A stretch of DNA of 64,000 nucleotides from an archaeon (GCA_030636025.1 DAOVXQ010000001.1:96809-160808), one strand, 5' to 3'; counted from the first letter of the stretch, positions 11,027 through 38,844 are shown. The notes: a model not told the origin generated them from the sequence alone. Numbers and translations are program-made.

Positions 11027-11194
11027 TTTACCTCCTTTCACCTAAAAACATTAACCAAAACATTTTTATAAATGTTTTGTTTTGAAATTATCGAGGGGAA
11101 AACACAAACCAACAACAAAAAATATAAATTTTATTATATATTTTAAGAAACAGCAAACTTTATAAAGGTGTCATAACTCGAAAATTGTAACAAA

Positions 11195-16702: not shown

Positions 16703-16815
16703 ATTAAATAAAAAGAGTTTTAGTTTAAATATTTTGTTCTTACAAAATATTTAACAATTAAAGCTATCGCTTAACAATAAAAACAAAAAAGAAAAAAAAG
16801 AAAAAAATAAAAACC

Positions 16816-23636: not shown

Positions 23637-24140
23637 TCACTCCTTACAAACATCTAACTCAACCCAGATATTTCCTTCACCATAATTAAATGGAATCATA
23701 TGGCTTGCTCCTTTGATAGAACTGCAATTTGCAAAAACACCGTCGCTGATTTCAACAAAATTTTCTCTAAAATCAGATTCAAAATAAATCGTAAGATTGT
23801 AGGCATCACCGAGATTTGAAATATTCATTAATTTTTCTAATTCAAAATCAAGTGAATTGCAAAAAGTTGTCTCGTCAAAGCAAGTTTCTAATTCACTATC
23901 TCTATGTTCATAACATGACTTAATTAAATTCTGCAGATTTTCATAATTCACAGGATAATTAATTTCGCAGTCTGTAGTAGAATACATACTTGCTTCTAAA
24001 AAATGCGAGATTTCAACACTTGTTGTTTTAAGTGTTTCCCCTCGTCCAATACTTAATGAAAGAAAAACAATTCCAATTACAGTTACAACTAAAATTATTA
24101 ATACAAATCCCACAATTTCCTGCTGTGCTTTTGCTTTCAT
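23637..24140 (-). CDS. Type IV pilin-like (class III signal-like) protein
   Basis: The N-terminus is MKAKAQQEIVGFVLIILVVTVIGIVFLSL, a short basic stretch and A-Q followed by about 22 hydrophobic residues. Last gene of a 5-gene operon. Confidence 0.5.
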   Translation of the reverse strand: MKAKAQQEIVGFVLIILVVTVIGIVFLSLSIGRGETLKTTSVEISHFLEASMYSTTDCEINYPVNYENLQNLIKSCYEHRDSELETCFDETTFCNSLDFELEKLMNISNLGDAYNLTIYFESDFRENFVEISDGVFANCSSIKGASHMIPFNYGEGNIWVELDVCKE

Positions 24141-24589
24141 ATTTTTAAATCCATTTCATAACGAACTATTTTAAATCCTAATTTTTTATATAATTTTAAA
24201 GCATTTTTATTTTTGATATTTGCCCCTAACCTACATTTTTTTATTCCTTTAACCTTTAAAATTTTTATAAATTCTTTAATTAGATTGGAAGCGAGTCTGT
24301 TTTTTCTGAATTTCTTTAATACAAAAACATCATCGATATATCCACTATTTTGCCATATATTTTTTATTATAGAACCTATTAAAAAACCGATTAAGTTTTT
24401 ATCATTATTAAGGACAAGAACAATATTATTTTTAGAAGAAATCATCTTATAAAATTCTTTTTTTATTTGTTCTTCTTTAGCATTTATTTTTTCTTTAATT
24501 AAATTAGAATATTCTTTAATACTTTCTTTTTTTAATTTTAAAAAATCTTCAAAATCTTTTCTTTTTGCTTTCCTTATTTTAATCATCAT
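24137..24589 (-). CDS. GNAT-family N-acetyltransferase
   Basis: Acetyl-CoA binding region VFVLKKFRKNRLASNLIKEFI and NKNALKLYKKLGFKIV. It has 4-nt overlaps with both neighbouring genes. Confidence 0.8.
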   Translation of the reverse strand: MMIKIRKAKRKDFEDFLKLKKESIKEYSNLIKEKINAKEEQIKKEFYKMISSKNNIVLVLNNDKNLIGFLIGSIIKNIWQNSGYIDDVFVLKKFRKNRLASNLIKEFIKILKVKGIKKCRLGANIKNKNALKLYKKLGFKIVRYEMDLKI

Positions 24590-25116
24590 TTTCTCTCACT
24601 CCCTGCCCAAATTTTAGCAATCTCACATTTATCATAAATCCGATTGTTCTCACTTTCCTTCCTACACAAAGCAACAAATGTTTTTTTAATTGTCTCATCT
24701 TTATTTTTATCAAATACAACAATTTTGTCGCAATCAGGATAATTTCCTTTTGTGCATTCAATCATCTCACTTTCTTTTTTATTCAAACCACTCTCAGTAA
24801 CAATAACCAAACTTGAAAAACTCCAGAATTTTTTATAAACTCCTGATTGTTCACTTGCCAATGCAATTAATTTATCTGCATCAATGCAATTTGGTTTTCC
24901 ACATGAAAATTCTGCACTGCCTGCCAAATTCATAATCGCAGAATATGTTTTTTCTTCTTCAATCTGCGTTGCTGATTTGTGTAAATTAGAATATATCATA
25001 GAAACCGCAAACAAACCCGCCAAAATAAAAAACAACACAACTGCAATTAACATAAACGACATTTCTTGAATTTTCAACTGCCCCTTCTTCCCAAATAATT
25101 TTTTTCTTTTTTTCAT
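24586..25116 (-). CDS. Type IV pilin-like protein
   Basis: N-terminus MKKRKKLFGKKGQLKIQEMSFMLIAVVLFFILAGLFAV. Confidence 0.5.
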   Translation of the reverse strand: MKKRKKLFGKKGQLKIQEMSFMLIAVVLFFILAGLFAVSMIYSNLHKSATQIEEEKTYSAIMNLAGSAEFSCGKPNCIDADKLIALASEQSGVYKKFWSFSSLVIVTESGLNKKESEMIECTKGNYPDCDKIVVFDKNKDETIKKTFVALCRKESENNRIYDKCEIAKIWAGSERK

Positions 25117-26049
25117 TTAATACAACCTGCACATAACATTTTTATTTTTTAAATCAGCTATTTTTGATGCTTGAGAAATCATTGACAAATCTTCAGAAGA
25201 GTCCAAATCACTAGCCAACCTTTTCAAATTAATTAAATCTCCCTCAATATTTGAACCACAACCCTGCATTCTAATAATATCTATTTTCCCAATATAAACA
25301 TCTGCCAAGATACCAAATTTTTTCATTAATCTTTTAACATTGCATTCGTAAATGTCTGGCGACGACATAATTGCTGCATAAAATAAATTATCCACATAAT
25401 ATAATTCTTTTGAACCTTTTTTTACAAAACCCTCTCCATTTAATGAGCCTGAAACCCGAACATCACAATTAGTATCTGAAACAAAACAAACCTTTGTCCC
25501 ATCGCAATTTTCTCCAACAGAAATAATTTCAATGTTTTCAATTCCCATTTCCCTAATTTCATTTTCAATTTCAGTTCCCGCCCCTGCAAAACAATAATTT
25601 TCACTAGAAGCAACAATTATATCAGCGACTTTAAATGGCATAGAAAATGGCATTGAAAATAAATGCAAGTCACCCTCAACAACTTCTTCTGCAAAAACAT
25701 ATTTATTATAAACAGCAATTTCTTCTCCTGGCTCACCCCATTTACCAAAAGATTTGTCTGCAAAAGCAATTGTTTGTTTCCCAAAATCCCCCCTTTCGCT
25801 GCAGGAAAAATAAATTCTTGTGTCTTTTTTAAATTCTATTTTTGAATATTTTCCCGACGCTATTCCGGATTCAGCAGGGTCCAGCAATGCAGAAAGTTTA
25901 GCAGCACTTTCTGTGCTGGTTATTTGATTTCCAACACCAATAAATTTTGTCGCCCCGTAAATCGCAAGAAACAAAATAAACACCCCCGCAATAATCGCAA
26001 ACAGCCAGGTAAAAGACATACCAATTGCTTTAGTATTTTTAATTCTCAT
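25117..26049 (-). CDS. Membrane-anchored extracellular protein of the pilin-like operon
   Basis: The N-terminus is MRIKNTKAIGMSFTWLFAIIAGVFILFLAIYGA. The G-MSF motif is shared with the two flanking genes. Confidence 0.5.
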   Translation of the reverse strand: MRIKNTKAIGMSFTWLFAIIAGVFILFLAIYGATKFIGVGNQITSTESAAKLSALLDPAESGIASGKYSKIEFKKDTRIYFSCSERGDFGKQTIAFADKSFGKWGEPGEEIAVYNKYVFAEEVVEGDLHLFSMPFSMPFKVADIIVASSENYCFAGAGTEIENEIREMGIENIEIISVGENCDGTKVCFVSDTNCDVRVSGSLNGEGFVKKGSKELYYVDNLFYAAIMSSPDIYECNVKRLMKKFGILADVYIGKIDIIRMQGCGSNIEGDLINLKRLASDLDSSEDLSMISQASKIADLKNKNVMCRLY

Positions 26050-26603
26050 TTCAACCCAACAAGAGCATTTCTATACTCTTTATTAATATCAATAGAAATT
26101 TTCCCATTTTCAACAGGAACACAATACGGATTTTCATCCCCAGTAATTTTTTCAATATCAATATACTTCAAATTATAATAAGGCATATCACACGCATTTT
26201 TCATAGGATAAAAAAACATATTTGCATTTTCATATTCATAAAAAGAAATTTCATCTGCAACAGTTCCTGAATCCAAAGAAACAGACAAATCAGCAAAACA
26301 AACAAACTCCAGATTTGAAGGCAAACTCGCATCAAATTCAAAACTCGCCTTATCAGAATCTTTCGCCCTCTCAACTTCATTTTCCAAATCATTAATAAAC
26401 AAACCAACTTGCGCGCATTTTTTCATATCTAAAAAATAATTAACCACCATAATCGCAGTGACAATAAAGAATATAATTAATATAATTGAAAATATCATTC
26501 CAAACGACATCCCGAAAACAGTCTGCGAGCGTTTTGACTTTGAACAAATTGTATTTTTAACAACAAAGTTAAAACGCGAGTTTGCCTTTTTACCTCTTTT
26601 CAT
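26046..26603 (-). CDS. Type IV pilin-like protein with long conserved pre-sequence
   Basis: KKANSRFNFVVKNTICSKSKRSQ-TVFGMSFGMIFSIILIIFFIV. The pre-sequence is nearly identical to that of ORF 37350-38204. Confidence 0.55.
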   Translation of the reverse strand: MKRGKKANSRFNFVVKNTICSKSKRSQTVFGMSFGMIFSIILIIFFIVTAIMVVNYFLDMKKCAQVGLFINDLENEVERAKDSDKASFEFDASLPSNLEFVCFADLSVSLDSGTVADEISFYEYENANMFFYPMKNACDMPYYNLKYIDIEKITGDENPYCVPVENGKISIDINKEYRNALVGLK

Positions 26604-26735: not shown

Positions 26736-27215
26736 ATGGCAAATAAAGATTTAGAAGGAAAAACTGCAAAAGATATTATTTTAGATATGAAGGACATGTC
26801 TGCCCGCCCAGAATATTATAGTGGATGTGGGGCTACTTGTTCTGATTTGGATAGTGGAAAACTTGAAAGAATTTATAAGCAAGTTACAAAAGAACATGGG
26901 GAAGGCGCAGGTAATCAATTCATACAAATGGTCGCAGATATTCCTGTTTTATCAGCTACAGATTTTTTATTATCTTTTTACAAATTAGGAAATCAAGGTT
27001 GGGAATGGAATAAAGGTCTTTTGGGAAATGAAAAAGGAATTGATGTTGGACAAGATTATGGTGATGGTAGAAGAGAAGCAATAGGTATGGCAACAATTGC
27101 ATCAGGATTAGATTGGAATAATATTGATGAAACCCCTGCAATTCGAGTGCCATTTTTAAAAAAGCATGGAATTGAACTTCCTGAAGATATAAACGATTTC
27201 TATAGGCGTAAATAA
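26736..27215 (+). CDS. Hypothetical soluble protein
   Basis: 159-aa ORF with 'gattataaagg' about 25 nt upstream. It is the only plus-strand gene inside the minus-strand envelope cluster. Confidence 0.45.
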   Translation: MANKDLEGKTAKDIILDMKDMSARPEYYSGCGATCSDLDSGKLERIYKQVTKEHGEGAGNQFIQMVADIPVLSATDFLLSFYKLGNQGWEWNKGLLGNEKGIDVGQDYGDGRREAIGMATIASGLDWNNIDETPAIRVPFLKKHGIELPEDINDFYRRK

Positions 27216-27236: not shown

Positions 27237-29402
27237 CTAAACAACATCAACCTGCTCAAGCAAGTCATAAGGCCTCACAGTTATTGAACACGCATTTGAA
27301 TTTGGCTGATTGTCATATTCATCTTTGCACCTTATATAATAGGTCTGTTTTGTATCCCAATCAATAGTATGAATCTTTTCATCACCTATTATTGAAATCC
27401 CGTCCTCAATCTCAAAATTACAATCAAGATTAGAATAACTGCAAACAGCATCTTCATTAGTTAAAATTTTCAACTTATCTCTCTCCCCATATACCCTCAC
27501 AACTATCGGGGTTTCTCTATCTGTTTCAATACTAAATGAAGTTGTTTCATAATCTGCATTTCCACCCAAATCAACACATTTGATGTAATAAGTATAATCT
27601 CCTGCAGGAAGGTCTTGTCTCTGGCTGTGTGCAGTTCCCAAATTTTCTGCAAACTCAAGATAGTCTACCTCACTGCCGGTTATAGAATAATAACAAAGAG
27701 ACTCTCCGTTGTTATATCCATTATCTGTTTTAACTTTCAAATAAACAGGAACCACATTAGTCGCCCCGAAAATTGCCTCATTTGGCTCAACATCTAAAAT
27801 ATTCAATGTCTGAGTTCCAACAACAACATATTCCTTGCTTTCAGAATTAACATTTCGATTAACCTCGTCAGAATTCGGCTGGTCCTTGCACCTGATAAAA
27901 TACTTATTTTCTTTTCTATCTTCAATCCCTATTAAAGTCGTCCTGCAAGTATAAACCAAATTCGCATTCATATTCCAAATTTGTTTATCACAAGTCATTT
28001 CATTTTCCATATTATTATAATCACTATCAGTTCGAGACCATTTGCATTCAGAAGGTTCATTTACATAAACCTCTAAATTTAATTCAGTTGTTTCATACTG
28101 GACAGGAGATTCACTTGGAATATTAAATCCTTCAATCTTTGGCGGAGTTGTGTCTGGTCCTGGTTCAACACAGAATCTTACTGAAAATGCATCCTGGTTA
28201 AAATTACCATTAGCATCTCTGCACCGAACATACAAAGTATAAGTCCCGTCATTTTCCAACTCAGGAGCAATATCATTTAAGGCATCAGGACCCGGCAAGG
28301 ACATTTTCTCTGTATGATTATAACTATACAAATTACTGCCCCCGACAAAATAAGACATTTCCTCAAAACGATCTACTAAATTATAATCAACCTTGCACTG
28401 AGCAGGTTCATTAGTTGCAACCAAAAATTCAAGAGGTGTAAATGCCTTGAGGCATTCCTGATTATCTGGTTTTATTACAACCCCTGTTGCAGGCGGCCGC
28501 ACAGACCTGTCAGGAATAGATTTATGTCCAGAACTAACTTCACTAATCATAATCTTCGGACTTGTAACATCATTTGGTGCAACCCAATCACACAACTCAT
28601 CCTCTGTCCCTGCATTAAGAAGTTCACATGCCTGCCCCAAACTCTTACATCTATATTCAGTGCATCCAAGTTTATCATCATTACACTTCTCACAATCTCT
28701 GCCACCCAAAGGCGGTTCATAAGGATAACAATTAAACTCAACAATTTCATATTCTATTTTTTCATACATGATAACAAAAATTGCTGCTGCAATTCCGATG
28801 CCCATAACTCCGCCCCATTTAGCCCCCCAAGTTCCTTTTCCAGCTCCTAAAAATTCTGTAAATCCTCCAAGCAATCCTTCATTACCATAAGCCCCACTAA
28901 GAATTTGAGCAGTAAATGTTCCAGCAGCAAAAGCACCAGCCATAACAATATCAGCATTTCCACCAACAAACCCTCCAATCATAAATCCAAGTCCTGCTAC
29001 CATTCCAACTTGCATAAAATTTTTTAGAGCATCCTTGCCAATGAAACTGAGGATGTCTTTGCCTGCCCCCCCGCTTGTTCCTCCGCCACCCCCCCTTGCA
29101 GTATCTTCGACAGTTTTTTTTGTAACTTCTTCTGTGACCTTTTTTGTAACCTCTTCAGTCAATGAATTAGTGGAAACTCTGCTAGGGTTAACAGAATTTG
29201 TAACTCTACCAAGTTCACTAGTTGGTTTATGACTACTTGAAAAAAAAGCACTGTCGGAATCACTCTCCCAACTGGATATCTTTCCACTTACAACTCCAAC
29301 ATTCCCCATCAAAAAAGCAAACGCAAACACAGAAATTATCATTAAAGACATCTCAGAATATGCCTGTATCTTCACTCCTTTTTTTATCTCTTTGTTTTTC
29401 AT
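27237..29402 (-). CDS. Envelope protein, paralog of the C-terminal half of the giant protein (glycine-zipper membrane region, Cys knot, about 4 Ig-like repeats)
   Basis: CTEYRCKSLGQACELLN matches CSEYRCKSLGLACEFVN, and HTIDWDTKQTYYIRCKDEYDN matches HTIYWDVDKTYYIKCEDGLGN in ORF 33413-37348. Confidence 0.6.
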   Translation of the reverse strand: MKNKEIKKGVKIQAYSEMSLMIISVFAFAFLMGNVGVVSGKISSWESDSDSAFFSSSHKPTSELGRVTNSVNPSRVSTNSLTEEVTKKVTEEVTKKTVEDTARGGGGGTSGGAGKDILSFIGKDALKNFMQVGMVAGLGFMIGGFVGGNADIVMAGAFAAGTFTAQILSGAYGNEGLLGGFTEFLGAGKGTWGAKWGGVMGIGIAAAIFVIMYEKIEYEIVEFNCYPYEPPLGGRDCEKCNDDKLGCTEYRCKSLGQACELLNAGTEDELCDWVAPNDVTSPKIMISEVSSGHKSIPDRSVRPPATGVVIKPDNQECLKAFTPLEFLVATNEPAQCKVDYNLVDRFEEMSYFVGGSNLYSYNHTEKMSLPGPDALNDIAPELENDGTYTLYVRCRDANGNFNQDAFSVRFCVEPGPDTTPPKIEGFNIPSESPVQYETTELNLEVYVNEPSECKWSRTDSDYNNMENEMTCDKQIWNMNANLVYTCRTTLIGIEDRKENKYFIRCKDQPNSDEVNRNVNSESKEYVVVGTQTLNILDVEPNEAIFGATNVVPVYLKVKTDNGYNNGESLCYYSITGSEVDYLEFAENLGTAHSQRQDLPAGDYTYYIKCVDLGGNADYETTSFSIETDRETPIVVRVYGERDKLKILTNEDAVCSYSNLDCNFEIEDGISIIGDEKIHTIDWDTKQTYYIRCKDEYDNQPNSNACSITVRPYDLLEQVDVV

Positions 29403-29411
29403 TTTTTATCT

Positions 29412-29741
29412 TTAAGGTTTTATTTCTAAAACTGCATTTTTTAATTCACTTAAATTATCTTCAATAAAACTCCAAATTAAATTATAATTTACAGCAGCAT
29501 ATTTATGACTTATGATATTTCTCAATTTTTCAAATTTTTTCCATTTAATTTCTTTATTTTTTCTTTTTAAATTTAATGGGATTTTCTTTATATTCTCTCC
29601 AATAACCTGAAGTCTCATTAATGTTGCATCCTGTAATTCTGAATCTTTTAAAAAATCCTCTTTGTTTAATTTAAATATAGAACTCTCTATTTTTTCAATA
29701 ATTTCCAAAATAACATTTATATATAATTTATAATCTAACAT
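29412..29741 (-). CDS. HEPN (DUF86) toxin-like protein
   Basis: RNIISHKY (Rx4H) motif. Overlaps the upstream nucleotidyltransferase gene. Confidence 0.8.
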   Translation of the reverse strand: MLDYKLYINVILEIIEKIESSIFKLNKEDFLKDSELQDATLMRLQVIGENIKKIPLNLKRKNKEIKWKKFEKLRNIISHKYAAVNYNLIWSFIEDNLSELKNAVLEIKP

Positions 29742-30036
29742 ATTCTGCTTCCTCCCTTACATAAGCCATTTCAGGTCTTAAACTTGATTCAATTATCATA
29801 TCAATTTTTCTTTTAAACATATTTTCCAATAATATCATAACTTCCGCATAATTATCAAAAGAAAGATCATCAAAATTTATTAAAATATCTATATCGCTCT
29901 TTTTTGTTTGTTTTCCTTTTAAAATTGAGCCAAATATTCCTATTTTTTTAACCCCCCTGTTTTTTAATTTATTTTTATTTTTTTCTATTTGTTCCAAAAT
30001 TTTTCCTTTATCCATTTTTAGTGTTTGTTTCTTCAT
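29728..30036 (-). CDS. Minimal nucleotidyltransferase (MNT antitoxin-like)
   Basis: IGIFGSILKGKQTKKSDIDILINF (GS...DxD) motif. Confidence 0.8.
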   Translation of the reverse strand: MKKQTLKMDKGKILEQIEKNKNKLKNRGVKKIGIFGSILKGKQTKKSDIDILINFDDLSFDNYAEVMILLENMFKRKIDMIIESSLRPEMAYVREEAEYVRL

Positions 30037-30329
30037 ATTATCCTTACCTCCTCATCAGGTATATTCTTTTTTAATAAATGATTAATCCCGCCATAAGTTA
30101 ATAAATCAACATTTTTTTTCAATTTCTTCTTTAATTCTATTTCTATTTTAATTACATCTAATAAAGTTCCATCAACATCAATCAAAATATCAATATCACT
30201 ATTTTTCTTTTCATCTCCTCGAGCATAACTTCCAAATATCCCTACCTTTTTTACATTATGTTTTTTTAAAATATTTATAATTATTTTTTTCATTTTGCTA
30301 ATTTTATTTTCTGCTTTTAACATCTTCAT
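30033..30329 (-). CDS. Minimal nucleotidyltransferase (MNT), second copy
   Basis: VGIFGSYARGDEKKNSDIDILIDV motif. Confidence 0.8.
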   Translation of the reverse strand: MKMLKAENKISKMKKIIINILKKHNVKKVGIFGSYARGDEKKNSDIDILIDVDGTLLDVIKIEIELKKKLKKNVDLLTYGGINHLLKKNIPDEEVRII

Positions 30330-30347
30330 TCTATAGTTATTACTATT

Positions 30348-30596
30348 TCAATAAATCCTCCCTCTTTTATCTATATGAACAATTTGAATTAATTCATTAC
30401 TATGAACTTCATACAAAATCCAATAATCCCCGATTCTCACTCTAAAAACCTGCCCTTTTTCTCCCTGAATTCTTTTTGTATCTTGAGGAAAGCAATTTTC
30501 AGATAGCTCATTAATTTTTTTAATTACCCTCAAATAAATTTCTTTCTCACAATTTCTAAGAAATTTTTCAGCCCTTTTAGAAAACTTAATTTTCAT
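30348..30596 (-). CDS. RelE/ParE-family toxin
   Basis: FRVRIGDYWILYEV...IVHIDKRGRIY pattern. Confidence 0.75.
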   Translation of the reverse strand: MKIKFSKRAEKFLRNCEKEIYLRVIKKINELSENCFPQDTKRIQGEKGQVFRVRIGDYWILYEVHSNELIQIVHIDKRGRIY

Positions 30597-30783
30597 CTAA
30601 ATCTTTTTTTAAATCTTCAAGTGAAACGCATTTGCCTTCTTCAAGTTCTTTTCTTGATTCTTCTAAAATGATTTGTTCGTCTCCACTTAAAAAAGAATCT
30701 TCAAAAGATTCTTGAAGTGAACTAACCATGTGCGTCAAAATTTCAAGCTTTTTATTAACGCTTTTTAATTCTTCTTGTTCCAT
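30586..30783 (-). CDS. Putative antitoxin of the RelE/ParE pair
   Basis: 65-aa acidic ORF overlapping the toxin start by 11 nt. Confidence 0.5.
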   Translation of the reverse strand: MEQEELKSVNKKLEILTHMVSSLQESFEDSFLSGDEQIILEESRKELEEGKCVSLEDLKKDLDEN

Positions 30784-30836
30784 TTTGCATTCAAAATCTT
30801 AAAGATATTTAAACTTTCCTCCTTTCATTATTTTCA

Positions 30837-32588
30837 TCATGCCCCTGCCCTCGCTTTTATTTCATCCATAAATCCTTGTATTAAACTTAAATCATACTTT
30901 TTGCCCTTAACTTTCCATTCAGCCCCGCCATCTGTATATCTTCCAACATAATTAACATAAGCACCGCAATCACCCAACGACGAGCAGACCCTGTTCATTT
31001 TCTGAGCATATCCAACTTCTAAACATTCGCAATTATCAACACACTTTCCCCCGCCAGTTAATTTTTCTTCATATTTAACAACACAAACAGAACTCCCATA
31101 ATTGCAGACACTCTGAGCATCCCCTTGATTCCAGAACATTAATCCAGCAGGAATTTCAGGAAGACAAATTCCCCCCCCCAACTGAGCACCAGCAGGAGAT
31201 TTTTCTGGTCCGTCTTCTTCACTTGCTCTTCCAGTTATTGGTGCAATCGCCTGTCCAGTAATTCCTCCTTCAAATCCGCCTGTTGAACCTCCGCTAAACC
31301 CTCCAGTTGAACCACTACCAAAAACACCAGAAGTCGAAGTATCACTTTGAGTAGTTGTTGCAACACCAACACCACTCCAAAAAACACCTTCCAACCAATA
31401 ACAATCCCGCCTGTCTGTATTCAAACAATCCTCTTCCTCTTTCTGGTCCAAACAATCTCTCCATCTATTAATCCTGCAAGCCGCCTCTGTAAAATCACCA
31501 CTTGAAGTTTCAATAAAATCCTGAATACAAACCTCATTTCTATAATCAGCACATGGTTCAATAGTTATCTCGCCATTCATACAAACATACCGAAAATGTT
31601 TACTTCCCACAGCATCAGAACCCTCGCCAATTTTTCCATCATAAACACACCACGACTCTCCATTTTTCCATTTATTTCCTTCATCATCTTTACATTCTAA
31701 ATTTCTGCAATTATAATCTCCATAAGTTGCACTTCCTTTACCACAAATTGAACTACCAAAATAATCACAGTTCCCGCATTTAGGGTCTCCTGATTTACTT
31801 AAACTGCAACTATCTGCCTTACTAACAATCTTGTTCCAATAAACAGCATCATCAACTTTAGACGAATCATAAATATTTGCAGGATTACCGCAACTATCTA
31901 CAAAATAAACCTCGTCTTTTCCATCAATGCACATTGTTCTGGTTGTCTTGCCGCAATTTGTAGCCAGTTCTTCTGCAGAACACAAATAATCTTTTTTAAA
32001 TTCAGAATTTTCTATATTCAAACACTCGCCTCTTGTTGTAAATCTGCAAGTCCGTTCAAACTCGTCTGTCTCATAAACACACGCCCCCTTGTCCTGCGAC
32101 TGAGCAATTCCAATACAACTAATTTCATCACCAACATTTGTTCTAAAGTCAGTATTTAACCCATAAATATTAGACAATCTTTTGCATCTTGTTAAAGTTA
32201 CAAAACTTGCTTGGTCTCCTATGATGCAACAACCTAATTCGCATTGAGGAATATTACATTGAGCATCATCACTCCAAACCCCTCCTGCATTCTCGCAAAC
32301 TTTTTGAGGCGTGCCTTCCATACATAAACCATCTTTACTATCAAAACAACAACCCTTCTTGCAAAAACTCGTTGCCTCGCACGAAGTCGGCGTCATCCTC
32401 AAATTTCCAGAAGTATCACAATTTTCTTCCAAAGTATCCTGACACCAAGCCCCCCCAATAGTTTTCTCACAGCAAACATTAAATGCAGGAAATATAGATG
32501 CATCTGCACTAACAAACCCAAGAGAAAAAATAAATCCCGCTACAATCAAACAAATTTCAAAACCAACCTGCAATTTTTTATTTTTCAT
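30837..32588 (-). CDS. Cysteine-rich secreted protein, paralog of the N-terminal half of the giant protein
   Basis: VYFVDSCGNPANIY matches VYWFDSCGNRENIY. NGESWCVYDG...PCADYRNEVCIQD matches NGESWCVYDG...PCLDYRNQVCIQG. LGDCGAYVNY is found in both. Confidence 0.6.
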   Translation of the reverse strand: MKNKKLQVGFEICLIVAGFIFSLGFVSADASIFPAFNVCCEKTIGGAWCQDTLEENCDTSGNLRMTPTSCEATSFCKKGCCFDSKDGLCMEGTPQKVCENAGGVWSDDAQCNIPQCELGCCIIGDQASFVTLTRCKRLSNIYGLNTDFRTNVGDEISCIGIAQSQDKGACVYETDEFERTCRFTTRGECLNIENSEFKKDYLCSAEELATNCGKTTRTMCIDGKDEVYFVDSCGNPANIYDSSKVDDAVYWNKIVSKADSCSLSKSGDPKCGNCDYFGSSICGKGSATYGDYNCRNLECKDDEGNKWKNGESWCVYDGKIGEGSDAVGSKHFRYVCMNGEITIEPCADYRNEVCIQDFIETSSGDFTEAACRINRWRDCLDQKEEEDCLNTDRRDCYWLEGVFWSGVGVATTTQSDTSTSGVFGSGSTGGFSGGSTGGFEGGITGQAIAPITGRASEEDGPEKSPAGAQLGGGICLPEIPAGLMFWNQGDAQSVCNYGSSVCVVKYEEKLTGGGKCVDNCECLEVGYAQKMNRVCSSLGDCGAYVNYVGRYTDGGAEWKVKGKKYDLSLIQGFMDEIKARAGA

Positions 32589-33349
32589 TTTCCGCTAAAT
32601 CCTGCAGGAAGCACCAAACTCCTTGATGCAAACTGAAATTTATTTAATGAAACTCTGTCTGTCAAAATATAAATCGTCGTGCCGTCCCCTTGTTTTTTCT
32701 TTTCAACTTTTATTGAAGGATAAAAAATCATATAGCTCATTGTTTCAGAATCGCCATAACGTGCCTCCCAGTTTGCAATCGAGCTCGCAATCATAACCAA
32801 CTCATAAATCTTAGAACCCACATCAGTTTTAATAGATTTATATGATTCTGTCGTGTCTTTTGTTATTGTCAAATCACTTTTAGTCTCAACAAAAATATTC
32901 CCTGAAATTAAATCAACAGAATTTTCAACCTCGCCAAAACCGACCACATAACCCTCTCTTTCCAAATTTGCCTTGACAGAATTAAAACAACTCTCAACTT
33001 TGTCGTCGATATAATTTTCAATTTCCTCCTCAATAGATTTTCTCAGCAATGGTTTTTGCATCACACAAGTTTCATAATATTCATCTGTATAACACAAATA
33101 ATCTATTTTATCTCCTTTATATTCAAAATAAAATTCAGGATTAATACTCCCCCCTTGCAACGCCAAAACATCAACAGCTTCTTCAACCGCTTCTTCAACA
33201 CAATCTTGAATTTGGGTTACAGGACTTTTACCCCCAATAAACTGCATAAAATTTCCGCCTCTAAACAACAAAAATAAAATTAACACCATCGCTAATGCTA
33301 ATATGATGAATATCGTAATCTGCCCTTTTTTATTTACACCTTTTTCCAT
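32585..33349 (-). CDS. Type IV pilin-like protein (module B partner)
   Basis: The N-terminus is MEKGVNKKGQITIFIILALAMVLILFLLF (KKG-Q). It is a paralog of 37350-38204: EEEIENYIDDKVESCF matches EEEIENYIDRKVDSCF. Confidence 0.6.
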   Translation of the reverse strand: MEKGVNKKGQITIFIILALAMVLILFLLFRGGNFMQFIGGKSPVTQIQDCVEEAVEEAVDVLALQGGSINPEFYFEYKGDKIDYLCYTDEYYETCVMQKPLLRKSIEEEIENYIDDKVESCFNSVKANLEREGYVVGFGEVENSVDLISGNIFVETKSDLTITKDTTESYKSIKTDVGSKIYELVMIASSIANWEARYGDSETMSYMIFYPSIKVEKKKQGDGTTIYILTDRVSLNKFQFASRSLVLPAGFSGK

Positions 33350-33412
33350 TCTAGTTTCTTTGACTCCTAAATCCTTTCTTTTCTAAAGAAAGTATTTAGT
33401 ATTTATAAAACT

Positions 33413-36400
33413 TCATAAATCCCTCAACGTTTGGACAACTCTCTTGCCACCAGGATTTCCAAGTCCATCCTCGCATTTTATATAATAAGTTTTATCAACA
33501 TCCCAATAAATCGTGTGCTCTTTTCCTAAACCAATCATTTCTTCCCATTCTTCATTATCTTCTGAATACTCACATTTCCCATCCTCACTTGTCATGATTT
33601 TCAAACTTCCTGCATCATAATACATTCTTGTAATTATCGGTCCAGTGTTATCAACACTAATTGTAAAAGAAACGGAATCTTCTGCAATGTTGCCTGCAAT
33701 GTCTGTGCATTTGACAGAAAGATTGTGTTCTCCCTCATATAATGAAAATCCAGTCTGCCTATGTCTATTTGTCCAAACATCTAAAAAAGCATTAGAAGTA
33801 AATTCAAAAGGAATTAAATTACCATAGGCCTCATAACTGCAAACAGATTCCCCATTATCAACTCCCCCAGAAGTTTCAACCTCTAAATCAATAACCATAA
33901 AATCATTGCCTGTGAAAAATTCATTACCATAGCTTTCAGAATCTTTAACTTTTAAGCTATCAATTTTTAAATCAAACTCAGCAACATTCAAAACATATTC
34001 AAAAGGACTTTCCATTGCATTTCTCAAACTCTCATTCTCAGGGAAATACCACGGATTATCTTTGCATTTAATGTAAAATTTATTCTCTCCTTTTTCAAGC
34101 CCTGTTAATGTAGTATTGCAAACCAAGGCACTTTCTATTGAAGTTTCACAATCCATTTGATGAACCACATCATCCCGCATATCATCATATTCTGTAAACT
34201 CATCAAGCCCCCATCTGCAATACGCAGGTTCATTCATCCAGATTTTCAACTCTTTCTCTTCAACACCTTTTTTAACATAACCTCCACTTAAAGGAAATGC
34301 CTGTTTCACATAAGGCGCATCTCTATCTCTGCCTTTTTTAACACACATTTGTATAATATATTGAGGAGAGCTTTCCAATCCATAAGCCCCCTTACATTTA
34401 ACATACAATCTCAAATCACCATATTTTTCAATTATTGTTTCAGTTGGAATTGGGTATTGATTAACTAATGATGCAACACTTGGTGCCATAAAATTCAAAG
34501 TATGATTATACAAAAGTAAACTACTCCCAAAATAACTACTCCCCATTTCATCAAAGCCAACATCCTCAAAAGAATATCTGCAAATAGTTGGCTTATTTTC
34601 TGTTTTAATTCTCATACTAAATGCGGTATTTTCCGGGATGCATTCACCTGAATCTGAAATCCCTGCCCCATAAGTCTGTTCTCTAAATTCAAAATCATTT
34701 GAAATCTCTCCAAAAGAAATTATCGGAATCAGACCATCATCTTGCATAGGCACACACAATGGATTATCACTATTTTCATTAACAAATTCACACGCAAGAC
34801 CCAAGCTCTTGCACCTATACTCAGAACACTGTTGCAATAAATCCCCCTCATTATCCATCTCTCCCTGATTGCACAAATCACAATTCTCTGCACCAAACTC
34901 TGGCTTCCAAGGAAGGCACTGAAAATGAACTGATTTTTTGCTTACATCTCCAATTCCAAAACCAAATTTTAAAAGAGCACCGATTGCTACTCCAATGGCT
35001 GCACCAATAAGTCCTCCTGCTAAAAATCCTAACTTCGTAAAGATTACTAAAACTACCGCACCTACAATTGCAAACCCCATTGATGCCCACATAACATCTG
35101 CTGAAAATCCTAATAGCATCCCGATTATTGTAGTTAATCCAACTGCAATTCCAACAGCTAATCCTGCATTAACAATCCCTGCGATAACAACTCCTAAATT
35201 TGAACCTGCCGCCGCAACTACTCCTGCAGTGGCTACTCCTTCTAATGCTACAATAAATCCTCCTAATGTTCCTGCAGATGCTGCCAAAGCCCCCCCAACA
35301 ACAGCAAGACCATAAACCCCCATACCAATCTTCCCCATAGCACCAGCAACTTTCCCACCATCACCAAAATCATCTTCACTTATCCCCAAAGCACTACTCA
35401 AATATCCTTTTTTAACAAGATAATCCACAACATCCATAGACTCTATTTTTTCTCCTGCAATTGGCTCAGCATTTCTCACATATGCATTTTCCATTTGACT
35501 AAAAAAAGCAGGATTGCCCCAAATTCTAAGAAGTTCTCCAAGATTAAAATTATTCACAGCAAAACCCTCTGTTGAAAAATCCCCTTCATAATTAACATAT
35601 GCCCCGCAATCGCCCAAGCTAACACACCATTCATTCATTAATTTCACTGCATTTGCATTTGAACAATGAGTGTTAATTTTTTTATCTTTGCCTATTCTTT
35701 TAACCTTGATAATCTGGCAACTTTGCGTCGCCATGCTACAAATATTTTCATTAGTCTGTCCAGAACCCTGTTCAGCAACATTGCCAAAATCAAAACCAGG
35801 AGGATATTTAGGTGTGCAGGTATTAAAATAAAACTTAGTATCAATATAAGTGGACTTGACATAACAAAAAGGATTTTCATCACATTCTTCAAGTGCTTCT
35901 GCGTGTTCCGAAGCTGTTTCGCCCTGAGTATTATATACTAAACAATTCTGCCACGGGTTTGCAATGCAGTTCGCAGAAGAAAAAATCTCCCCATTATCTA
36001 ATTCTTGGTCCCCCTGAATGCAAACCTGATTTCTATAATCTAAACAAGGGTTTGATTTTACTTCTCCATCTTCACAATAAAATTTCCAATGTCTGCTTCC
36101 AACAGTATCTCTTGAAAATGGATTTGCAGAATCAAAATCTACTCCAACAGCCCCATCATAAACACACCAACTTTCTCCATTTCTTTTTGTCACTTCCTGC
36201 CCGTCAATTAAAACATCCGGGCAATTCAAATCTTTGCAAACTGCCTCACCACTTTCTTCACTACAAATACTCCCGGCATACCTTAAGCAATTCCCACAAT
36301 CTTCTGAATTCGCATTTGCATCCTCAGAATCAACACCACAACTTTCCCCCTTAGACAAAACCATTCCATTATTCCAGCTTTCATCCAAATCACTTGAATA

Positions 36401-37348
36401 AATATTCTCTCTATTTCCACAACTATCAAACCAATAAACCTCGTCTTTTCCTAAAACACATCCAGTATAATTCTGTTTTGTGCAAATAGTGTCTAATACA
36501 GAATTAGAACATAATTTTTGAGAATTAAAATTACCTCCTCTTGAATAACATTCAGAACCAGTTATAAATCTGCAATTCCCGTCATTAAAAACACAAGCAC
36601 CCTCTATCTCTGCCTCTACCAAAATCAAACACTCTTGTTCAGTTGTTATTTCAGGTTTAAACTCTTCTTCAACACCCAACATCTCTCCCCACCACTCACA
36701 ATTTTTTTCAGTAGTAAATTTAACACCACTACCTAAAACACAACACGATTTTTGGCACCTTGACGAAGTGCAGGAAACATCTCCCTCATCAAACTCTCCT
36801 GCCCCACATCCTTTTCTTTGCGAAATAGAACAAGTCCCTTCCTCACTATCATAACAACAACCAGACTTACAATTAAAATTATTATCACACGCAACAGGAA
36901 CAATATTTTCTCTATCGCAATTTTGTTCTATATCTGAAGCAGGATAATCCTGGCAAAGCACCCCATCACTCTCTTCGCAACAATGCACTGCAAAATCCTC
37001 TGGATTCAAATCTTGTGCAGAAACACTTCCCAACAAAGGCGTCTTCAACCTCTCAATAAACTTCTCAATCATTTTCTCAAAAAACGACTTCTGATTTTCT
37101 TCATACTCCAGAAAATTATTCACAATTTCATCTTGTTCTTCCCTTTGCTTCTCCAAACTCTTCTCAATTATCTGGTCCATAATTAAATCTTTTCTAAGGT
37201 TCTCAGAATTTTTCAAATCTCCCAAAACCTCCTCAATCGCATCAGACGAATCACTATAAATATAAGAAAATGCAAACATTGCCACCATCAAAATCAAAAT
37301 CTCTGAGTAACAAATCCCTGCATTTTTTGTCAAATATTTTTTCTCCAT
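33413..37348 (-). CDS. Giant (about 1311 aa) cysteine-rich envelope protein
   Basis: The domain order is an N-terminal hydrophobic anchor, a Cys-rich half, a Gly/Ala-rich multi-helix membrane region, a Cys knot, then Ig-like repeats. It equals ORFs 30837-32588 plus 27237-29402 fused. The start was set at MEKKYL (37348), 1 nt after the upstream stop; ATGs at 37360 and 37387 are alternatives. Confidence 0.65.
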   Translation of the reverse strand: MEKKYLTKNAGICYSEILILMVAMFAFSYIYSDSSDAIEEVLGDLKNSENLRKDLIMDQIIEKSLEKQREEQDEIVNNFLEYEENQKSFFEKMIEKFIERLKTPLLGSVSAQDLNPEDFAVHCCEESDGVLCQDYPASDIEQNCDRENIVPVACDNNFNCKSGCCYDSEEGTCSISQRKGCGAGEFDEGDVSCTSSRCQKSCCVLGSGVKFTTEKNCEWWGEMLGVEEEFKPEITTEQECLILVEAEIEGACVFNDGNCRFITGSECYSRGGNFNSQKLCSNSVLDTICTKQNYTGCVLGKDEVYWFDSCGNRENIYSSDLDESWNNGMVLSKGESCGVDSEDANANSEDCGNCLRYAGSICSEESGEAVCKDLNCPDVLIDGQEVTKRNGESWCVYDGAVGVDFDSANPFSRDTVGSRHWKFYCEDGEVKSNPCLDYRNQVCIQGDQELDNGEIFSSANCIANPWQNCLVYNTQGETASEHAEALEECDENPFCYVKSTYIDTKFYFNTCTPKYPPGFDFGNVAEQGSGQTNENICSMATQSCQIIKVKRIGKDKKINTHCSNANAVKLMNEWCVSLGDCGAYVNYEGDFSTEGFAVNNFNLGELLRIWGNPAFFSQMENAYVRNAEPIAGEKIESMDVVDYLVKKGYLSSALGISEDDFGDGGKVAGAMGKIGMGVYGLAVVGGALAASAGTLGGFIVALEGVATAGVVAAAGSNLGVVIAGIVNAGLAVGIAVGLTTIIGMLLGFSADVMWASMGFAIVGAVVLVIFTKLGFLAGGLIGAAIGVAIGALLKFGFGIGDVSKKSVHFQCLPWKPEFGAENCDLCNQGEMDNEGDLLQQCSEYRCKSLGLACEFVNENSDNPLCVPMQDDGLIPIISFGEISNDFEFREQTYGAGISDSGECIPENTAFSMRIKTENKPTICRYSFEDVGFDEMGSSYFGSSLLLYNHTLNFMAPSVASLVNQYPIPTETIIEKYGDLRLYVKCKGAYGLESSPQYIIQMCVKKGRDRDAPYVKQAFPLSGGYVKKGVEEKELKIWMNEPAYCRWGLDEFTEYDDMRDDVVHQMDCETSIESALVCNTTLTGLEKGENKFYIKCKDNPWYFPENESLRNAMESPFEYVLNVAEFDLKIDSLKVKDSESYGNEFFTGNDFMVIDLEVETSGGVDNGESVCSYEAYGNLIPFEFTSNAFLDVWTNRHRQTGFSLYEGEHNLSVKCTDIAGNIAEDSVSFTISVDNTGPIITRMYYDAGSLKIMTSEDGKCEYSEDNEEWEEMIGLGKEHTIYWDVDKTYYIKCEDGLGNPGGKRVVQTLRDL

Positions 37349-37349
37349 T

Positions 37350-38204
37350 TTAAATCCCATGTTTCGGCGCAAAATTCCTAATCGCAAACTGAAACTTTAA
37401 TTGAGTAATTTTATCTTTAATTATATAAATTCTAGTATCATCCTTGGTTTCATCAAATTCATCGTCGTCTCTTTGTTTCATTGTAATTTCATATCCCGGA
37501 TAAAAAATATTATATCCTTGTGTCTGAAACCCTCCAAATCTAATCTCTTGATTAACAATCTCCCTCGCAATATCTGCCAGATTATAAATTGGATGATTCA
37601 AACTAAATTTAAATTTCTTAAACTCTTCCGACTCTTTCTTACTCATTTTAAAATCCTTTTCAATATTAATAAAAATTTTACTGCTAATCAAATTAACTTC
37701 CAATTCTTTACCTGTTTCCATCACAACCTCGTAATTCTTTTTTTCCAAACCAAGTTTCAAACCATCAAAACAACTATCTACTTTTCTATCTATATAATTT
37801 TCAATTTCTTCTTCAAGATGTTTAATTAATATTGGCTCTTGATTTACACATGGCTGAAGATAATTCCTATTGTAACATAAATAACTAATTTTTTCATCTT
37901 TGTAAGTTTTAAAATTTGTTGGTTCTAAATACCCGCCTTGCTTCATTAAAAGTTCAACAGCTTCTTCAACCCTCTCTTTAACGCAACTTTCAATATACTG
38001 TTGAGGATTTTCCTCGTCGGCAACAGAAACTTTAATTCCAGCCCCCCTAAAAACTACAAAAAGAATTGCAATAATCACAACTAACAATAAACCTAAGATT
38101 ATAAAGATCGTTACTTGCGAGGTTTTTGACTTTGAACAAATGTTATTTTTAAAAACAAAGTCAAGGCGCGAGTTTGCTTTCTTGTTTTGCCCTCGACGAT
38201 TCAT
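37350..38204 (-). CDS. Type IV pilin-like protein with long conserved pre-sequence (module A partner)
   Basis: NKKANSRLDFVFKNNICSKSKTSQ-VTIFIILGLLLVVIIAILFVVF. Confidence 0.6.
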   Translation of the reverse strand: MNRRGQNKKANSRLDFVFKNNICSKSKTSQVTIFIILGLLLVVIIAILFVVFRGAGIKVSVADEENPQQYIESCVKERVEEAVELLMKQGGYLEPTNFKTYKDEKISYLCYNRNYLQPCVNQEPILIKHLEEEIENYIDRKVDSCFDGLKLGLEKKNYEVVMETGKELEVNLISSKIFINIEKDFKMSKKESEEFKKFKFSLNHPIYNLADIAREIVNQEIRFGGFQTQGYNIFYPGYEITMKQRDDDEFDETKDDTRIYIIKDKITQLKFQFAIRNFAPKHGI

Positions 38205-38344
38205 TTTATTTCCCTCTCTTTTTTTAATAATTCAATTGCTTTTTCAATTATGTGAGATTTATTTCTGTAATCCCCATCCTTTAATAAAGAATTTAAAATC
38301 CTTTCTGTTTCTTTGCTTATTGTTGCAGATATTCTTAATTTCAT
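38201..38344 (-). CDS. Ribbon-helix-helix (CopG/Arc-like) protein, 47 aa, not in ORF track
   Basis: My translation is MKLRISATISKETERILNSLLKDGDYRNKSHIIEKAIELLKKEREIK. Its TGA overlaps the ATG of the next gene (ATGA). Confidence 0.6.
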   Translation of the reverse strand: MKLRISATISKETERILNSLLKDGDYRNKSHIIEKAIELLKKEREIK

Positions 38345-38843: not shown

Positions 38844-38844
38844 T

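What the first reader, a model, noticed from the sequence alone, without database searches (positions are those of the whole stretch)
27237..38344. Two paralogous modules pairing a pilin-like gene with a giant cysteine-rich envelope protein (one fused, one split), headed by an RHH gene
All genes are on the minus strand.

Module A consists of an RHH gene (38201-38344), a pilin-like gene (37350-38204) and a 1311-aa ORF (33413-37348). The first junction is an ATGA overlap and the second is a 1-nt gap.

Module B follows 63 nt later. It consists of a pilin-like paralog (32585-33349), a 583-aa Cys-rich ORF (30837-32588, ATGA overlap), a toxin-antitoxin island, and a 721-aa ORF (27237-29402).

The 583-aa protein aligns with the N-terminal half of the giant protein:
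- VYFVDSCGNPANIY matches VYWFDSCGNRENIY.
- NGESWCVYDG is found in both.
- PCADYRNEVCIQD matches PCLDYRNQVCIQG.
- LGDCGAYVNY is found in both.

The 721-aa protein aligns with the C-terminal half:
- Both have a Gly/Ala-rich multi-helix membrane region.
- CTEYRCKSLGQACELLN matches CSEYRCKSLGLACEFVN.
- Both have about four repeats ending in a YYI[RK]C[KE]D..[GD]N-type motif.

The combined architecture is a hydrophobic N-anchor, a domain with dozens of cysteines, a glycine-zipper membrane segment, a Cys knot and Ig-like repeats. I do not recognise it as any characterised family. Its fixed pairing with a dedicated pilin-like partner suggests a surface or cell-cell contact apparatus, plausibly host attachment in an episymbiotic archaeon.
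Basis: partly seen in the sequence, partly recalled or inferred. Interest (0 to 1): 0.85.

Follow-up and report, generated by a model that had tools for sequence, protein, structure and literature searches.

The report
Conserved DPANN cell-envelope gene cluster
This is a real gene cluster, shared by Pacearchaeota and Woesearchaeota, that pairs small prepilin-like proteins with two giant cysteine-rich membrane proteins; no part matches a characterised family, and it is a good candidate for their cell-surface or cell-contact apparatus.

Summary
All ORFs, junctions and quoted motifs are as described. The paralogy is far beyond chance: giant vs 583-aa E 1e-59, giant vs 721-aa 6e-68, partner vs partner 1e-63.

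The layout is not a local accident. In 79 species-representative genomes of Pace-/Woesearchaeota the order is primase, PCNA, small regulator, partner, giant 1, partner, giant 2 N-half, giant 2 C-half. Four more small prepilin-like genes and the S-layer gene follow in about half the loci.
- 150 of 159 giant genes have a partner gene directly upstream.
- The two giants form separate orthologous groups, so the duplication is old.
- Giant 2 is split in 45 of 48 loci, so the split predates the toxin-antitoxin island.

Pfam, NCBIfam and PDB sequence searches place none of the cluster proteins. The partner's confident model has no structural neighbour. The giant's C-half is an Ig-like domain array. 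I could not search its N-domain separately.

The best reading is a membrane-anchored surface complex, plausibly an adhesion module related to type IV filaments. No assembly genes lie nearby, and function remains inferred.

The parts
38201..38344 (-). 47-aa ribbon-helix-helix protein heading the operon; likely operon regulator
   Evidence: RHH_1 E 0.0034 (sub-threshold) and ParD-like E 7e-4. ATGA overlap with the next gene. The RISATID...YRNKSH motif is conserved in about 17 loci. About 24 loci carry a 61-aa wHTH gene in the same overlapping position instead.
37350..38204 (-). Partner A (P1), 284 aa: basic leader, hydrophobic helix, disulfide-bearing alpha/beta ectodomain
   Evidence: 42% identical to P2. 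100 homologs, all unnamed. K[GA]Q plus hydrophobic stretch in 62 of 77 orthologs. 4 invariant Cys. AF2 pLDDT 88, pTM 0.78. No PDB neighbour: best E 0.02, TM 0.16 or less.
33413..37348 (-). Giant 1 (G1), 1311 aa, always a single ORF in relatives
   Evidence: 851 homologs, best E 1e-233, about 35% identity over the full length, all hypothetical. About 55 invariant Cys. Model pLDDT 78.
37256..37324 (-). G1 N-terminal hydrophobic anchor (residues 9-31)
   Evidence: Hydropathy scan. Only 16 of 77 orthologs show a [KR][GA] prepilin-type site.
35549..36991 (-). G1 Cys-rich N-domain (about residues 120-600), beta-rich
   Evidence: pLDDT 80-95. 46 Cys in the paralogous 583-aa protein. Most conserved region, majority-residue fraction 0.61. 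No Pfam, NCBIfam or PDB sequence match.
34949..35368 (-). G1 Gly/Ala-rich hydrophobic segment (about residues 661-800); probably 2-4 membrane helices
   Evidence: 36 G and 27 A in 165 residues. pLDDT 25-50. Orthologs have 120-140 uncharged residues, the last ~50 the most hydrophobic. GxxxG only weakly enriched.
34739..34936 (-). Membrane-proximal Cys-rich module (about residues 805-870: C.PW..P.GG.DC..CN...C..YRC.SLG.AC)
   Evidence: 7 invariant Cys. Conservation 0.65. pLDDT 80-93.
33416..34738 (-). G1 C-terminal array of about 4 Ig/FN3-like beta-sandwich domains
   Evidence: Foldseek E 1e-11 to 1e-8 to tandem Ig arrays of adhesins, receptors and an S-layer protein and to phage FN3/tail proteins. 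Big_13 and Y_Y_Y just under Pfam cut-offs. Conserved N-x-S/T sequons at 948, 966 and 1267.
32585..33349 (-). Partner B (P2), 254 aa, KKG|QITIFII N-terminus
   Evidence: K[GA]Q plus hydrophobic stretch in 71 of 80 orthologs. ATGA overlap with G2N.
30837..32588 (-). Giant 2 N-half (G2N), 583 aa, 46 Cys, ordinary Sec-type signal peptide (..GFVSA|DA); probably secreted
   Evidence: Family of 1,565 cluster representatives at E 1e-3 or better. Orthologous to the short forms in other loci (71 of 72 best hits).
29412..30783 (-). Inserted toxin-antitoxin island: 65-aa ORF, ParE (30348-30596), MNT (30033-30329), MNT (29728-30036), HepT (29412-29741)
   Evidence: Pfam E 2.5e-9, 2.3e-15, 1.1e-12 and 4.6e-22. 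MNT/HepT pairs sit at junctions of this cluster in at least 10 other loci.
27237..29402 (-). Giant 2 C-half (G2C), 721 aa: own N-terminal anchor, low-complexity linker, Gly-rich segment, Cys module, Ig-like array
   Evidence: Collinear with residues 659-1284 of a fused 1287-aa relative, while G2N matches its residues 63-586.
26046..26603 (-). S1, 185-aa prepilin-like protein
   Evidence: Found in 23 loci. [KR][GA] plus hydrophobic stretch in 21 of 22 orthologs.
25117..26049 (-). S2, 310-aa prepilin-like protein
   Evidence: Found in 22 loci. K(K/R)G|FEFSFAWLFAII N-terminus in 17 of 20 orthologs. N-terminal 80 residues related to S1 (hhalign probability 94%).
24586..25116 (-). S3, 176-aa prepilin-like protein (KKGQLKIQEMSFMLIAV)
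   Evidence: Found in 19 loci. [KR][GAS]Q in 19 of 19 orthologs.
23637..24140 (-). S4, 167-aa prepilin-like protein (KAQQEIVGFVLII)
16816..19221 (-). S-layer protein gene, the usual downstream neighbour of the cluster
   Evidence: S_layer_C 24.9 bits against a cut-off of 23.9. It follows the cluster in at least 11 loci.

Best explanation
The region is the core of a conserved, vertically inherited envelope operon of Pacearchaeota and Woesearchaeota. It builds a membrane-anchored surface complex.

Shown:
- A small DNA-binding protein gene heads the operon.
- Each giant gene is overlapped or abutted by a dedicated partner gene.
- The partner-giant pair was duplicated before these lineages diverged.
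- In the second copy the giant is normally two genes.
- In the window and in about half of the loci, four small genes with prepilin-type N-termini follow.

Inferred:
- All products are exported.
- Each giant sits in the producer's membrane by its N-terminal anchor and by 2-4 helices of the Gly/Ala-rich segment.
- The disulfide-rich N-domain lies near the membrane, and the array of about four Ig-like domains projects outward as a stalk.
- Each partner binds its own giant as a subunit or assembly chaperone.
- The six proteins with K[GA]Q N-termini (P1, P2, S1-S4) are cut by a class III signal peptidase encoded elsewhere. They then form a short pilus-like or pseudopilus scaffold, analogous to the four minor pilins plus large adhesin that prime and tip bacterial type IV pili.
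- The likely function is attachment to a partner cell or surface.
For: - Paralogy and junctions.
- Synteny across 79 species-representative loci plus two long contigs.
- A partner gene lies upstream of 150 of 159 giant genes.
- Long and short giants best-hit their own type in other loci (87 of 91 and 71 of 72). Within-locus identity is 36%, against 54-66% between loci.
- Prepilin-type N-termini are conserved in 80-100% of P1, P2, S1, S3 and S4 orthologs.
- G2N has a Sec-type signal.
- The giant's C-half matches Ig-array ectodomains of adhesins, receptors and S-layer proteins.
- About 55 invariant Cys and conserved sequons argue for an extracellular location.
- The S-layer gene is adjacent.
- Woesearchaeota express archaellins highly, so they should possess a class III peptidase and filament machinery (PMC11606122).
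Against: - No Pfam or NCBIfam pilin model matches any of 73 S-family members or the partners.
- In the partner model the membrane helix is separated from the globular part by a low-confidence linker. Foldseek finds no pilin.
- No filament ATPase, platform protein or prepilin peptidase lies in the 64-kb window or in the 10-kb flanks of L001 and L003.
- S1-S4 are adjacent in only about half of the loci that extend far enough.
- Both ectodomains are evenly and fairly strongly conserved. That suits a housekeeping structure better than a host-specificity adhesin.
- Membrane topology was not predicted with a dedicated tool.
Confidence: 0.45

Rival explanations
1. It is an S-layer-associated housekeeping complex. 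The giants are membrane-anchored stalks or pillars that tether, space or help assemble the S-layer. The partners and small proteins are plain signal-anchored accessory subunits. No filament machinery is involved.
For: - Conserved adjacency to the S-layer gene, with an archaeosortase-like gene nearby.
- Core-genome position next to PCNA and primase in nearly all loci.
- Even, fairly high conservation of both ectodomains.
- One of the Foldseek hits is the Deinococcus HPI S-layer protein.
- No filament genes nearby.
- No pilin family match.
Against: - The K[GA]Q motif just before the hydrophobic helix is conserved across five unrelated small families. A plain anchor would not need it.
- Extra modules in some genomes (L011, L028, L048, L063, L069) are more typical of adhesin-like expansion.
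- No sequence similarity to known S-layer anchors.
Confidence: 0.3
2. It is an intercellular channel, translocon or fusion device. The Gly/Ala-rich hydrophobic segment inserts into a host membrane, or forms an oligomeric pore, to move lipids or metabolites between symbiont and host.
For: - A long Gly/Ala-rich hydrophobic segment is conserved in composition.
- GxxxG is weakly enriched.
- There is a faint, non-significant profile match of this segment to the type III translocator AopB (E 0.22).
- Small genomes that cannot make many metabolites need such a route (PMC8204110).
Against: - The AopB match is not significant and is probably compositional.
- The segment is the least conserved part of the protein (0.39).
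- It is flanked by domains that look like ordinary ectodomains.
- Such a hydrophobic stretch would be captured by the producer's own membrane during export.
- No fusogen-like hit appeared among the top 50 Foldseek matches listed.
Confidence: 0.1
3. It is an extracellular enzyme or metal/redox module. The Cys-rich N-domain binds metals or carries a catalytic site, and the rest is an anchor.
For: - Vicinal CC pairs.
- Invariant non-Cys residues in tight motifs: FDSCGN, GESWC.Y, GSRHW, DYR.
- The N-domain is the most conserved region.
Against: - No match to any enzyme or metal-binding family.
- The even number and spacing of Cys residues fit disulfide knots.
- The N-domain fold could not be searched on its own.
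Confidence: 0.07
4. The pairing or the split is a lineage-specific accident, or a gene broken by the toxin-antitoxin insertion.
For: - The island sits exactly between the two halves.
- The closest relatives of G2N in the representative search are fused proteins of 1287-1456 aa.
Against: - The second giant is split in 45 of 48 species-representative loci, often with no insert at all.
- Both halves keep intact ORFs with their own export signals.
- The pairing is conserved in 150 of 159 cases.
Confidence: 0.02

Closest known systems
Bacterial type IV pilus priming/tip module (four minor pilins plus the large adhesin PilY1), and the archaeal filament subsystem 4A said to carry a PilY-like adhesin (bioRxiv 10.64898/2026.04.22.720090)
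   Same: An operon of several small proteins with prepilin-type N-termini, one of them about twice the size of the others, encoded next to very large non-pilin surface proteins.
   Different: No sequence or structural match to any pilin or to PilY1. The giants carry their own membrane segments. There are two paralogous giants, each with a dedicated partner. No ATPase, platform or peptidase gene is linked.
Archaeal class III signal-peptide proteins that are not filament subunits (e.g. Sulfolobus sugar-binding proteins of the bindosome; from my own knowledge)
   Same: A short basic leader ending in K/R-G/A, followed by a hydrophobic helix, on otherwise unrelated exported proteins.
   Different: Different domains. 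No link to transporters. Processing is untested here.
Tandem Ig/FN3-domain surface proteins: GhpA grappling hook of Aureispira, Deinococcus HPI S-layer protein, the Marinomonas ice adhesin, cadherins (Foldseek hits)
   Same: The giant's C-terminal 500 residues form a chain of beta-sandwich domains (E 1e-11 to 1e-8).
   Different: The match is generic (TM 0.15 or less, 10% identity). The Cys-rich N-domain, the Gly-rich segment and the membrane-proximal Cys module have no counterpart.
Predicted archaeal secretion / S-layer-associated complex around arCOG01314 (Makarova et al. 2015, PMC5898192)
   Same: A neighbourhood of membrane proteins with 2-4 helices and Ig-like ectodomains next to S-layer-like genes, predicted from context only.
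   Different: That system is defined by a MoxR ATPase, vWA proteins and DUF4350/DUF1616 families. None of these is present here.
'Module 98': 51 protein families shared by Pacearchaeota and Woesearchaeota, mostly of unknown function (PMC8204110)
   Same: Same taxonomic range, and a predicted membrane or extracellular location. These families are probably counted in that module.
   Different: That paper lists families statistically. It does not describe this cluster, the pairing or the architecture. I could not confirm membership because the supplementary table is truncated.

Membership tests
Archaeal type IV pilins / class III signal-peptide proteins | Short basic leader ending in [KR][GA], directly followed by a hydrophobic helix of about 20 residues | tested here: met
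   Counts of orthologs with the feature: P1 62/77, P2 71/80, S1 21/22, S2 17/20, S3 16/19, S4 6/8. Gln is the usual +1 residue. It is not met by the giants (G1 16/77, G2C 14/39, G2N 3/64).
Archaeal type IV pilins / class III signal-peptide proteins | Match to a curated pilin/archaellin model (Pfam Pilin_N, Class_IIIsignal, Arch_flagellin; NCBIfam) | tested here: not met
   One of 73 S-family members hits Pilin_N, at E 0.036. Nothing else matches.
Archaeal type IV pilins / class III signal-peptide proteins | Pilin fold: N-terminal helix continuing into a globular beta-rich head | tested here: inconclusive
   In the P1 model the membrane helix (27-52) is followed by a low-confidence linker and then an alpha/beta domain. 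No pilin appears among the Foldseek hits.
Type IV filament systems | Linked assembly ATPase, platform protein and prepilin peptidase | tested here: not met
   None in the 64-kb window or in the flanks of L001 and L003. Their presence elsewhere in these genomes could not be tested.
Type IV filament systems | Cleavage of the leader and polymerisation | not testable with these tools
   Needs proteomics or biochemistry.
PilY1-type tip adhesin | C-terminal beta-propeller, often with an N-terminal vWA domain | tested here: not met
   No Pfam match. The listed Foldseek hits are Ig/FN3 arrays only.
Bacterial Ig-like domain families (Big_13, Y_Y_Y) | Score above the Pfam gathering threshold | tested here: inconclusive
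   G2C scores 26.5 bits for Big_13 (cut-off 27) and 24.2 for Y_Y_Y (cut-off 26.6). G1 scores 21.1 for Big_13. The fold is supported by Foldseek.
Glycine-zipper membrane proteins | Repeated GxxxG packing motifs beyond what composition gives; match to Gly-zipper Pfam families | tested here: inconclusive
   Median z 1.2 against shuffles, with 20-26% of orthologs above z 2. No Pfam Gly-zipper hit.
CopG/RHH transcription factors | RHH_1 model above threshold | tested here: inconclusive
   17.7 bits against 20.5. ParD-like at E 7e-4. The motif is conserved in about 17 loci, and wHTH or AbrB-like genes replace it elsewhere.
Type II toxin-antitoxin modules (ParDE; MNT-HepT) | Toxin and partner domains in adjacent small genes | tested here: met
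   ParE E 2.5e-9, NTP_transf_2/Polbeta E 1e-12 to 2e-15 (two genes), HepT-like E 4.6e-22. The 65-aa ORF upstream of ParE has no match.

The most novel reading that the evidence does not exclude
The cluster encodes a surface machine of a previously undescribed kind, specific to the Pace-/Woesearchaeota radiation. It consists of two ancient paralogous giant proteins with new-fold partners. They would form the physical contact apparatus with the host cell (anchor, channel or fusion site), independent of known filament or secretion systems.
Probability: 0.2. Interest if true: 0.85.

Novelty: new variant of a known kind. Interest (0 to 1): 0.62.

Why it matters
Pacearchaeota and Woesearchaeota are among the most abundant uncultured archaea in groundwater and sediments. 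They are presumed symbionts, but neither their hosts nor their means of attachment are known.

This locus is one of the few large, lineage-wide, purely extracytoplasmic gene sets in their tiny genomes. It gives named targets for metaproteomics, antibody or cryo-ET work, and complex modelling: two giants, their partners and four prepilin-like proteins. It also offers a clean natural example of an ancient fused/split gene pair whose junction has become a landing site for toxin-antitoxin genes.

Tried and rejected
- Pfam, NCBIfam and PDB searches, by single sequence and by profile, returned nothing significant for the giants, the partners or S1-S4.
- Foldseek with the whole giant model, against PDB and against viral structures, returned only generic Ig/FN3 arrays. 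These swamp any signal from the N-domain, and no further structure jobs were available to model that domain alone.
- The AopB translocator match (E 0.22) was rejected as compositional.
- The MltG hit of P2 (20 bits against a cut-off of 103) was rejected, and Foldseek found no such fold.
- The idea that the giants themselves carry prepilin signals was dropped after counting.
- The idea that the toxin-antitoxin island caused the split was dropped.
- hhalign between the P and S families gave only weak N-terminal relations.
- Literature searches found no description of the locus.
- The supplementary table that might list the families is truncated.
- Not used: the third homolog search, the metagenome scan and the viral-contig scans. 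They would have returned more unnamed relatives.

Full report
**1. The observation**

The ORF list reproduces every gene of the finding at the stated coordinates on the minus strand. Reading the junctions confirms the ATGA overlaps at RHH/partner A and partner B/583-aa. It also confirms the 1-nt gap between partner A and the giant's ATG, and the 63-nt spacer before module B.

BLASTP gives:
- giant vs 583-aa: 37% identity over 380 aa, E 1e-59, plus a second segment covering the LGDCGAYVNY motif;
- giant vs 721-aa: 30% over 607 aa, E 6e-68;
- partner A vs partner B: 42%, E 1e-63.

The island between the two halves holds a ParE toxin, two MNT nucleotidyltransferases and a HepT RNase.

**2. The setting**

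The window is 30% G+C and carries FtsZ, form III RuBisCO, aminoacyl-tRNA synthetases, PCNA and primase. This is a Pacearchaeota-type DPANN genome. It holds no type IV filament ATPase, platform protein or prepilin peptidase.

**3. The families**

- The giant has 851 homologs. The best score E 1e-233 at only about 35% identity over the full length. They are 1150-1390 aa long, all 'hypothetical', and come from Pacearchaeota, Woesearchaeota and Nanoarchaeota assemblies.
- An exhaustive search with the 583-aa protein finds 1,565 cluster representatives at E 1e-3 or better, and 800 at 1e-30 or better.
- The partner has 100 unnamed homologs.
- Alignments show about 55 invariant cysteines in the giant and four in the partner.
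- Pfam, NCBIfam and PDB sequence searches give nothing above threshold. Only Big_13 and Y_Y_Y scores just under cut-off appear, in the C-terminal repeats.

**4. Conservation of the layout**

A scan of one genome per GTDB species found at least 512 stretches encoding a relative. The best 79 loci were kept, all from Pace-/Woesearchaeota.

Mapping the window's proteins onto these loci and onto two long contigs gives one recurrent order: primase(-), PCNA(+), small regulator, partner, giant 1, partner, giant 2 N-half, giant 2 C-half. In about half of the loci that extend far enough, four small genes and the S-layer gene follow.

- Of 159 giant genes with enough upstream sequence, 150 have a partner gene directly upstream.
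- N-domains of long giants best-hit long giants of other loci (87 of 91), and short ones best-hit short ones (71 of 72).
- Within a locus the two are 36% identical. Orthologs between loci reach 54-66%.

The duplication of the partner-giant pair therefore predates the divergence of these lineages. Some genomes carry a third module (L011, L028, L048, L063, L069).

**5. Fused versus split**

Giant 1 is always one ORF. Giant 2 is two ORFs in 45 of 48 loci and fused in three: L003, L018 and L069.

- In about 15 loci the two halves abut or overlap.
- In at least 19 of 31 loci with a gap (about 25 by eye), a divergent lipobox-type lipoprotein gene sits just upstream of the C-half.
- Several loci hold MNT/HepT pairs there, and three hold about 5 kb of unrelated genes.

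The window's toxin-antitoxin island therefore occupies a recurrent insertion site. It did not create the split.

The nearest relatives of the window's N-half are, oddly, fused proteins of 1287-1456 aa. The window's two halves are collinear with residues 63-586 and 659-1284 of one of them. The C-half's own 108-residue anchor and linker have no counterpart there. The direction of change in this sub-lineage is open.

**6. Anatomy**

*Partners and small proteins.* Partner A models confidently (pLDDT 88, pTM 0.78). It has a membrane helix, a short disordered linker and an alpha/beta domain. It has no structural neighbour in the PDB (best E 0.02, TM 0.16 or less).

The partners and S1, S3 and S4 have a short basic leader ending in [KR][GA], then Gln and a hydrophobic helix, in 80-100% of orthologs. 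S2 has the same with Phe, Ile or Tyr at +1. This is the signature of archaeal class III (prepilin) signal peptides.

No curated pilin model matches any of 73 members, and the families are related to each other only weakly and only at the N-terminus.

*Giants.* The giants mostly lack the prepilin signature. The N-half of giant 2 has an ordinary Sec signal.

The giant 1 model (residues 112-1311, pLDDT 78) shows:
- a confident beta-rich Cys-rich domain;
- a low-confidence Gly/Ala-rich hydrophobic segment of about 130 residues;
- a Cys-rich membrane-proximal module;
- about four beta-sandwich domains.

Foldseek matches only the last of these, to generic Ig/FN3 arrays of adhesins, receptors, an S-layer protein and phage tail proteins.

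Conserved N-x-S/T sequons and the invariant cysteines argue that the C-half is outside the cell. The hydrophobic segment should then cross the membrane an even number of times. Its sequence is the least conserved part, and its GxxxG periodicity is only weakly above composition.

**7. Regulation**

The small gene overlapping the first partner gene is an RHH protein in the window and in about 17 loci. It is a 61-aa winged-helix protein in about 24 loci, and an AbrB-like protein in one. A DNA-binding gene kept at this position through non-orthologous replacement points to a dedicated operon regulator.

**8. Interpretation**

Shown: a conserved, ancient, co-duplicated pairing of exported proteins, with adhesin-like Ig stalks and prepilin-type small proteins, beside the S-layer gene.

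Inferred: a physical partner-giant complex, processing by a class III peptidase, a pseudopilus-like scaffold, and an attachment role.

Woesearchaeota express archaellins highly (PMC11606122), so the needed peptidase and machinery plausibly exist elsewhere in the genome. I rate the filament-related adhesion module at 0.45. The rivals are:
- an S-layer-associated housekeeping complex, 0.30. It is favoured by the even conservation, the core-genome position and the lack of linked machinery;
- a channel or fusion device, 0.10;
- an enzyme or metal module, 0.07;
- an accident, 0.02.

**9. Literature**

No paper found describes this locus.
- A protein-family survey reports a module of 51 mostly unknown families shared by Pace- and Woesearchaeota (PMC8204110). 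It probably includes these families.
- Reviews note that DPANN pilins escape similarity searches (PMC6393860).
- A 2026 preprint on archaeal filament systems mentions PilY-like adhesins in subsystem 4A (10.64898/2026.04.22.720090).
- The context-predicted arCOG01314 system is a different gene set (PMC5898192).

**10. Verdict**

This is a real and well-conserved locus made of uncharacterised families. It is best filed as a new variant of archaeal surface or filament-associated adhesion loci. There is a one-in-five chance that it is a new kind of contact machine.

Noticed in passing
window 38201-38344; L001:9049-9231, L003:9004-9195, L072:980-1144: The small regulator gene overlapping the first partner gene is replaced non-orthologously. 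It is RHH in about 17 loci, a 61-aa winged-helix protein (VTSSEIAK..SWNTAEKYLLEL) in about 24, and AbrB-like in one.
   Followed up: partly
window 29412-30783; e.g. L017:8809-9322 and 11110-12160, L031:14402-14930 and 16482-17113, L033:15761-17022: MNT/HepT (and HEPN) pairs recur inside this cluster in at least 10 loci, at the partner|N-half or N-half|C-half junctions. The junctions look like a preferred landing site, or the pairs may have a cluster-linked role.
   Followed up: partly
L053:16232-16885, L070:17046-17687, L073:13979-14776, L025:21700-22059 and others: A very divergent lipobox-type lipoprotein gene lies directly upstream of the giant-2 C-half in at least 19 (about 25 by eye) of 31 loci with a gap. 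It is absent from the window.
   Followed up: partly
window 24137-24589 (-): A GNAT acetyltransferase gene is embedded by 4-nt overlaps between the prepilin-like genes S3 and S4. The same placement occurs in L009, and there is a copy between partner and giant in L010. It may modify the cluster's proteins.
   Followed up: no
window 41238-43385 (+): A 715-aa secreted Cys- and Asp-rich protein with a C-terminal membrane helix and a Pro/Arg-rich tail. It has no Pfam match and is conserved just beyond primase in 37 related loci.
   Followed up: partly
window 26736-27215 (+): A 159-aa ORF on the opposite strand between the giant-2 C-half and S1. It has no Pfam match and no homolog in any related locus.
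   Followed up: partly
window 13767-14456 (+), 16816-19221 (-), 21863-23428 (-): An exosortase/archaeosortase-like gene, the S-layer gene, and a 521-aa protein with membrane helices at both ends and a weak Ig-like hit. Together they form an envelope-gene neighbourhood downstream of the cluster.
   Followed up: no
L067:14151-17055, L079:15159-18283: In these loci the giant-2 C-half is followed by a further partner-like gene (248 aa, K[RK]AQ.S..III) and a 718-793-aa protein. This may be a third, different module.
   Followed up: no
window 38472-38891 (-): A 139-aa TTG-start ORF overlaps the 3' end of PCNA. It has no Pfam match and no homolog in related loci, so it is doubtful as a gene.
   Followed up: partly
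L040, L047, L055: In these loci the giant-2 N-half is followed directly by S1-S4, with no C-half gene in between.
   Followed up: no
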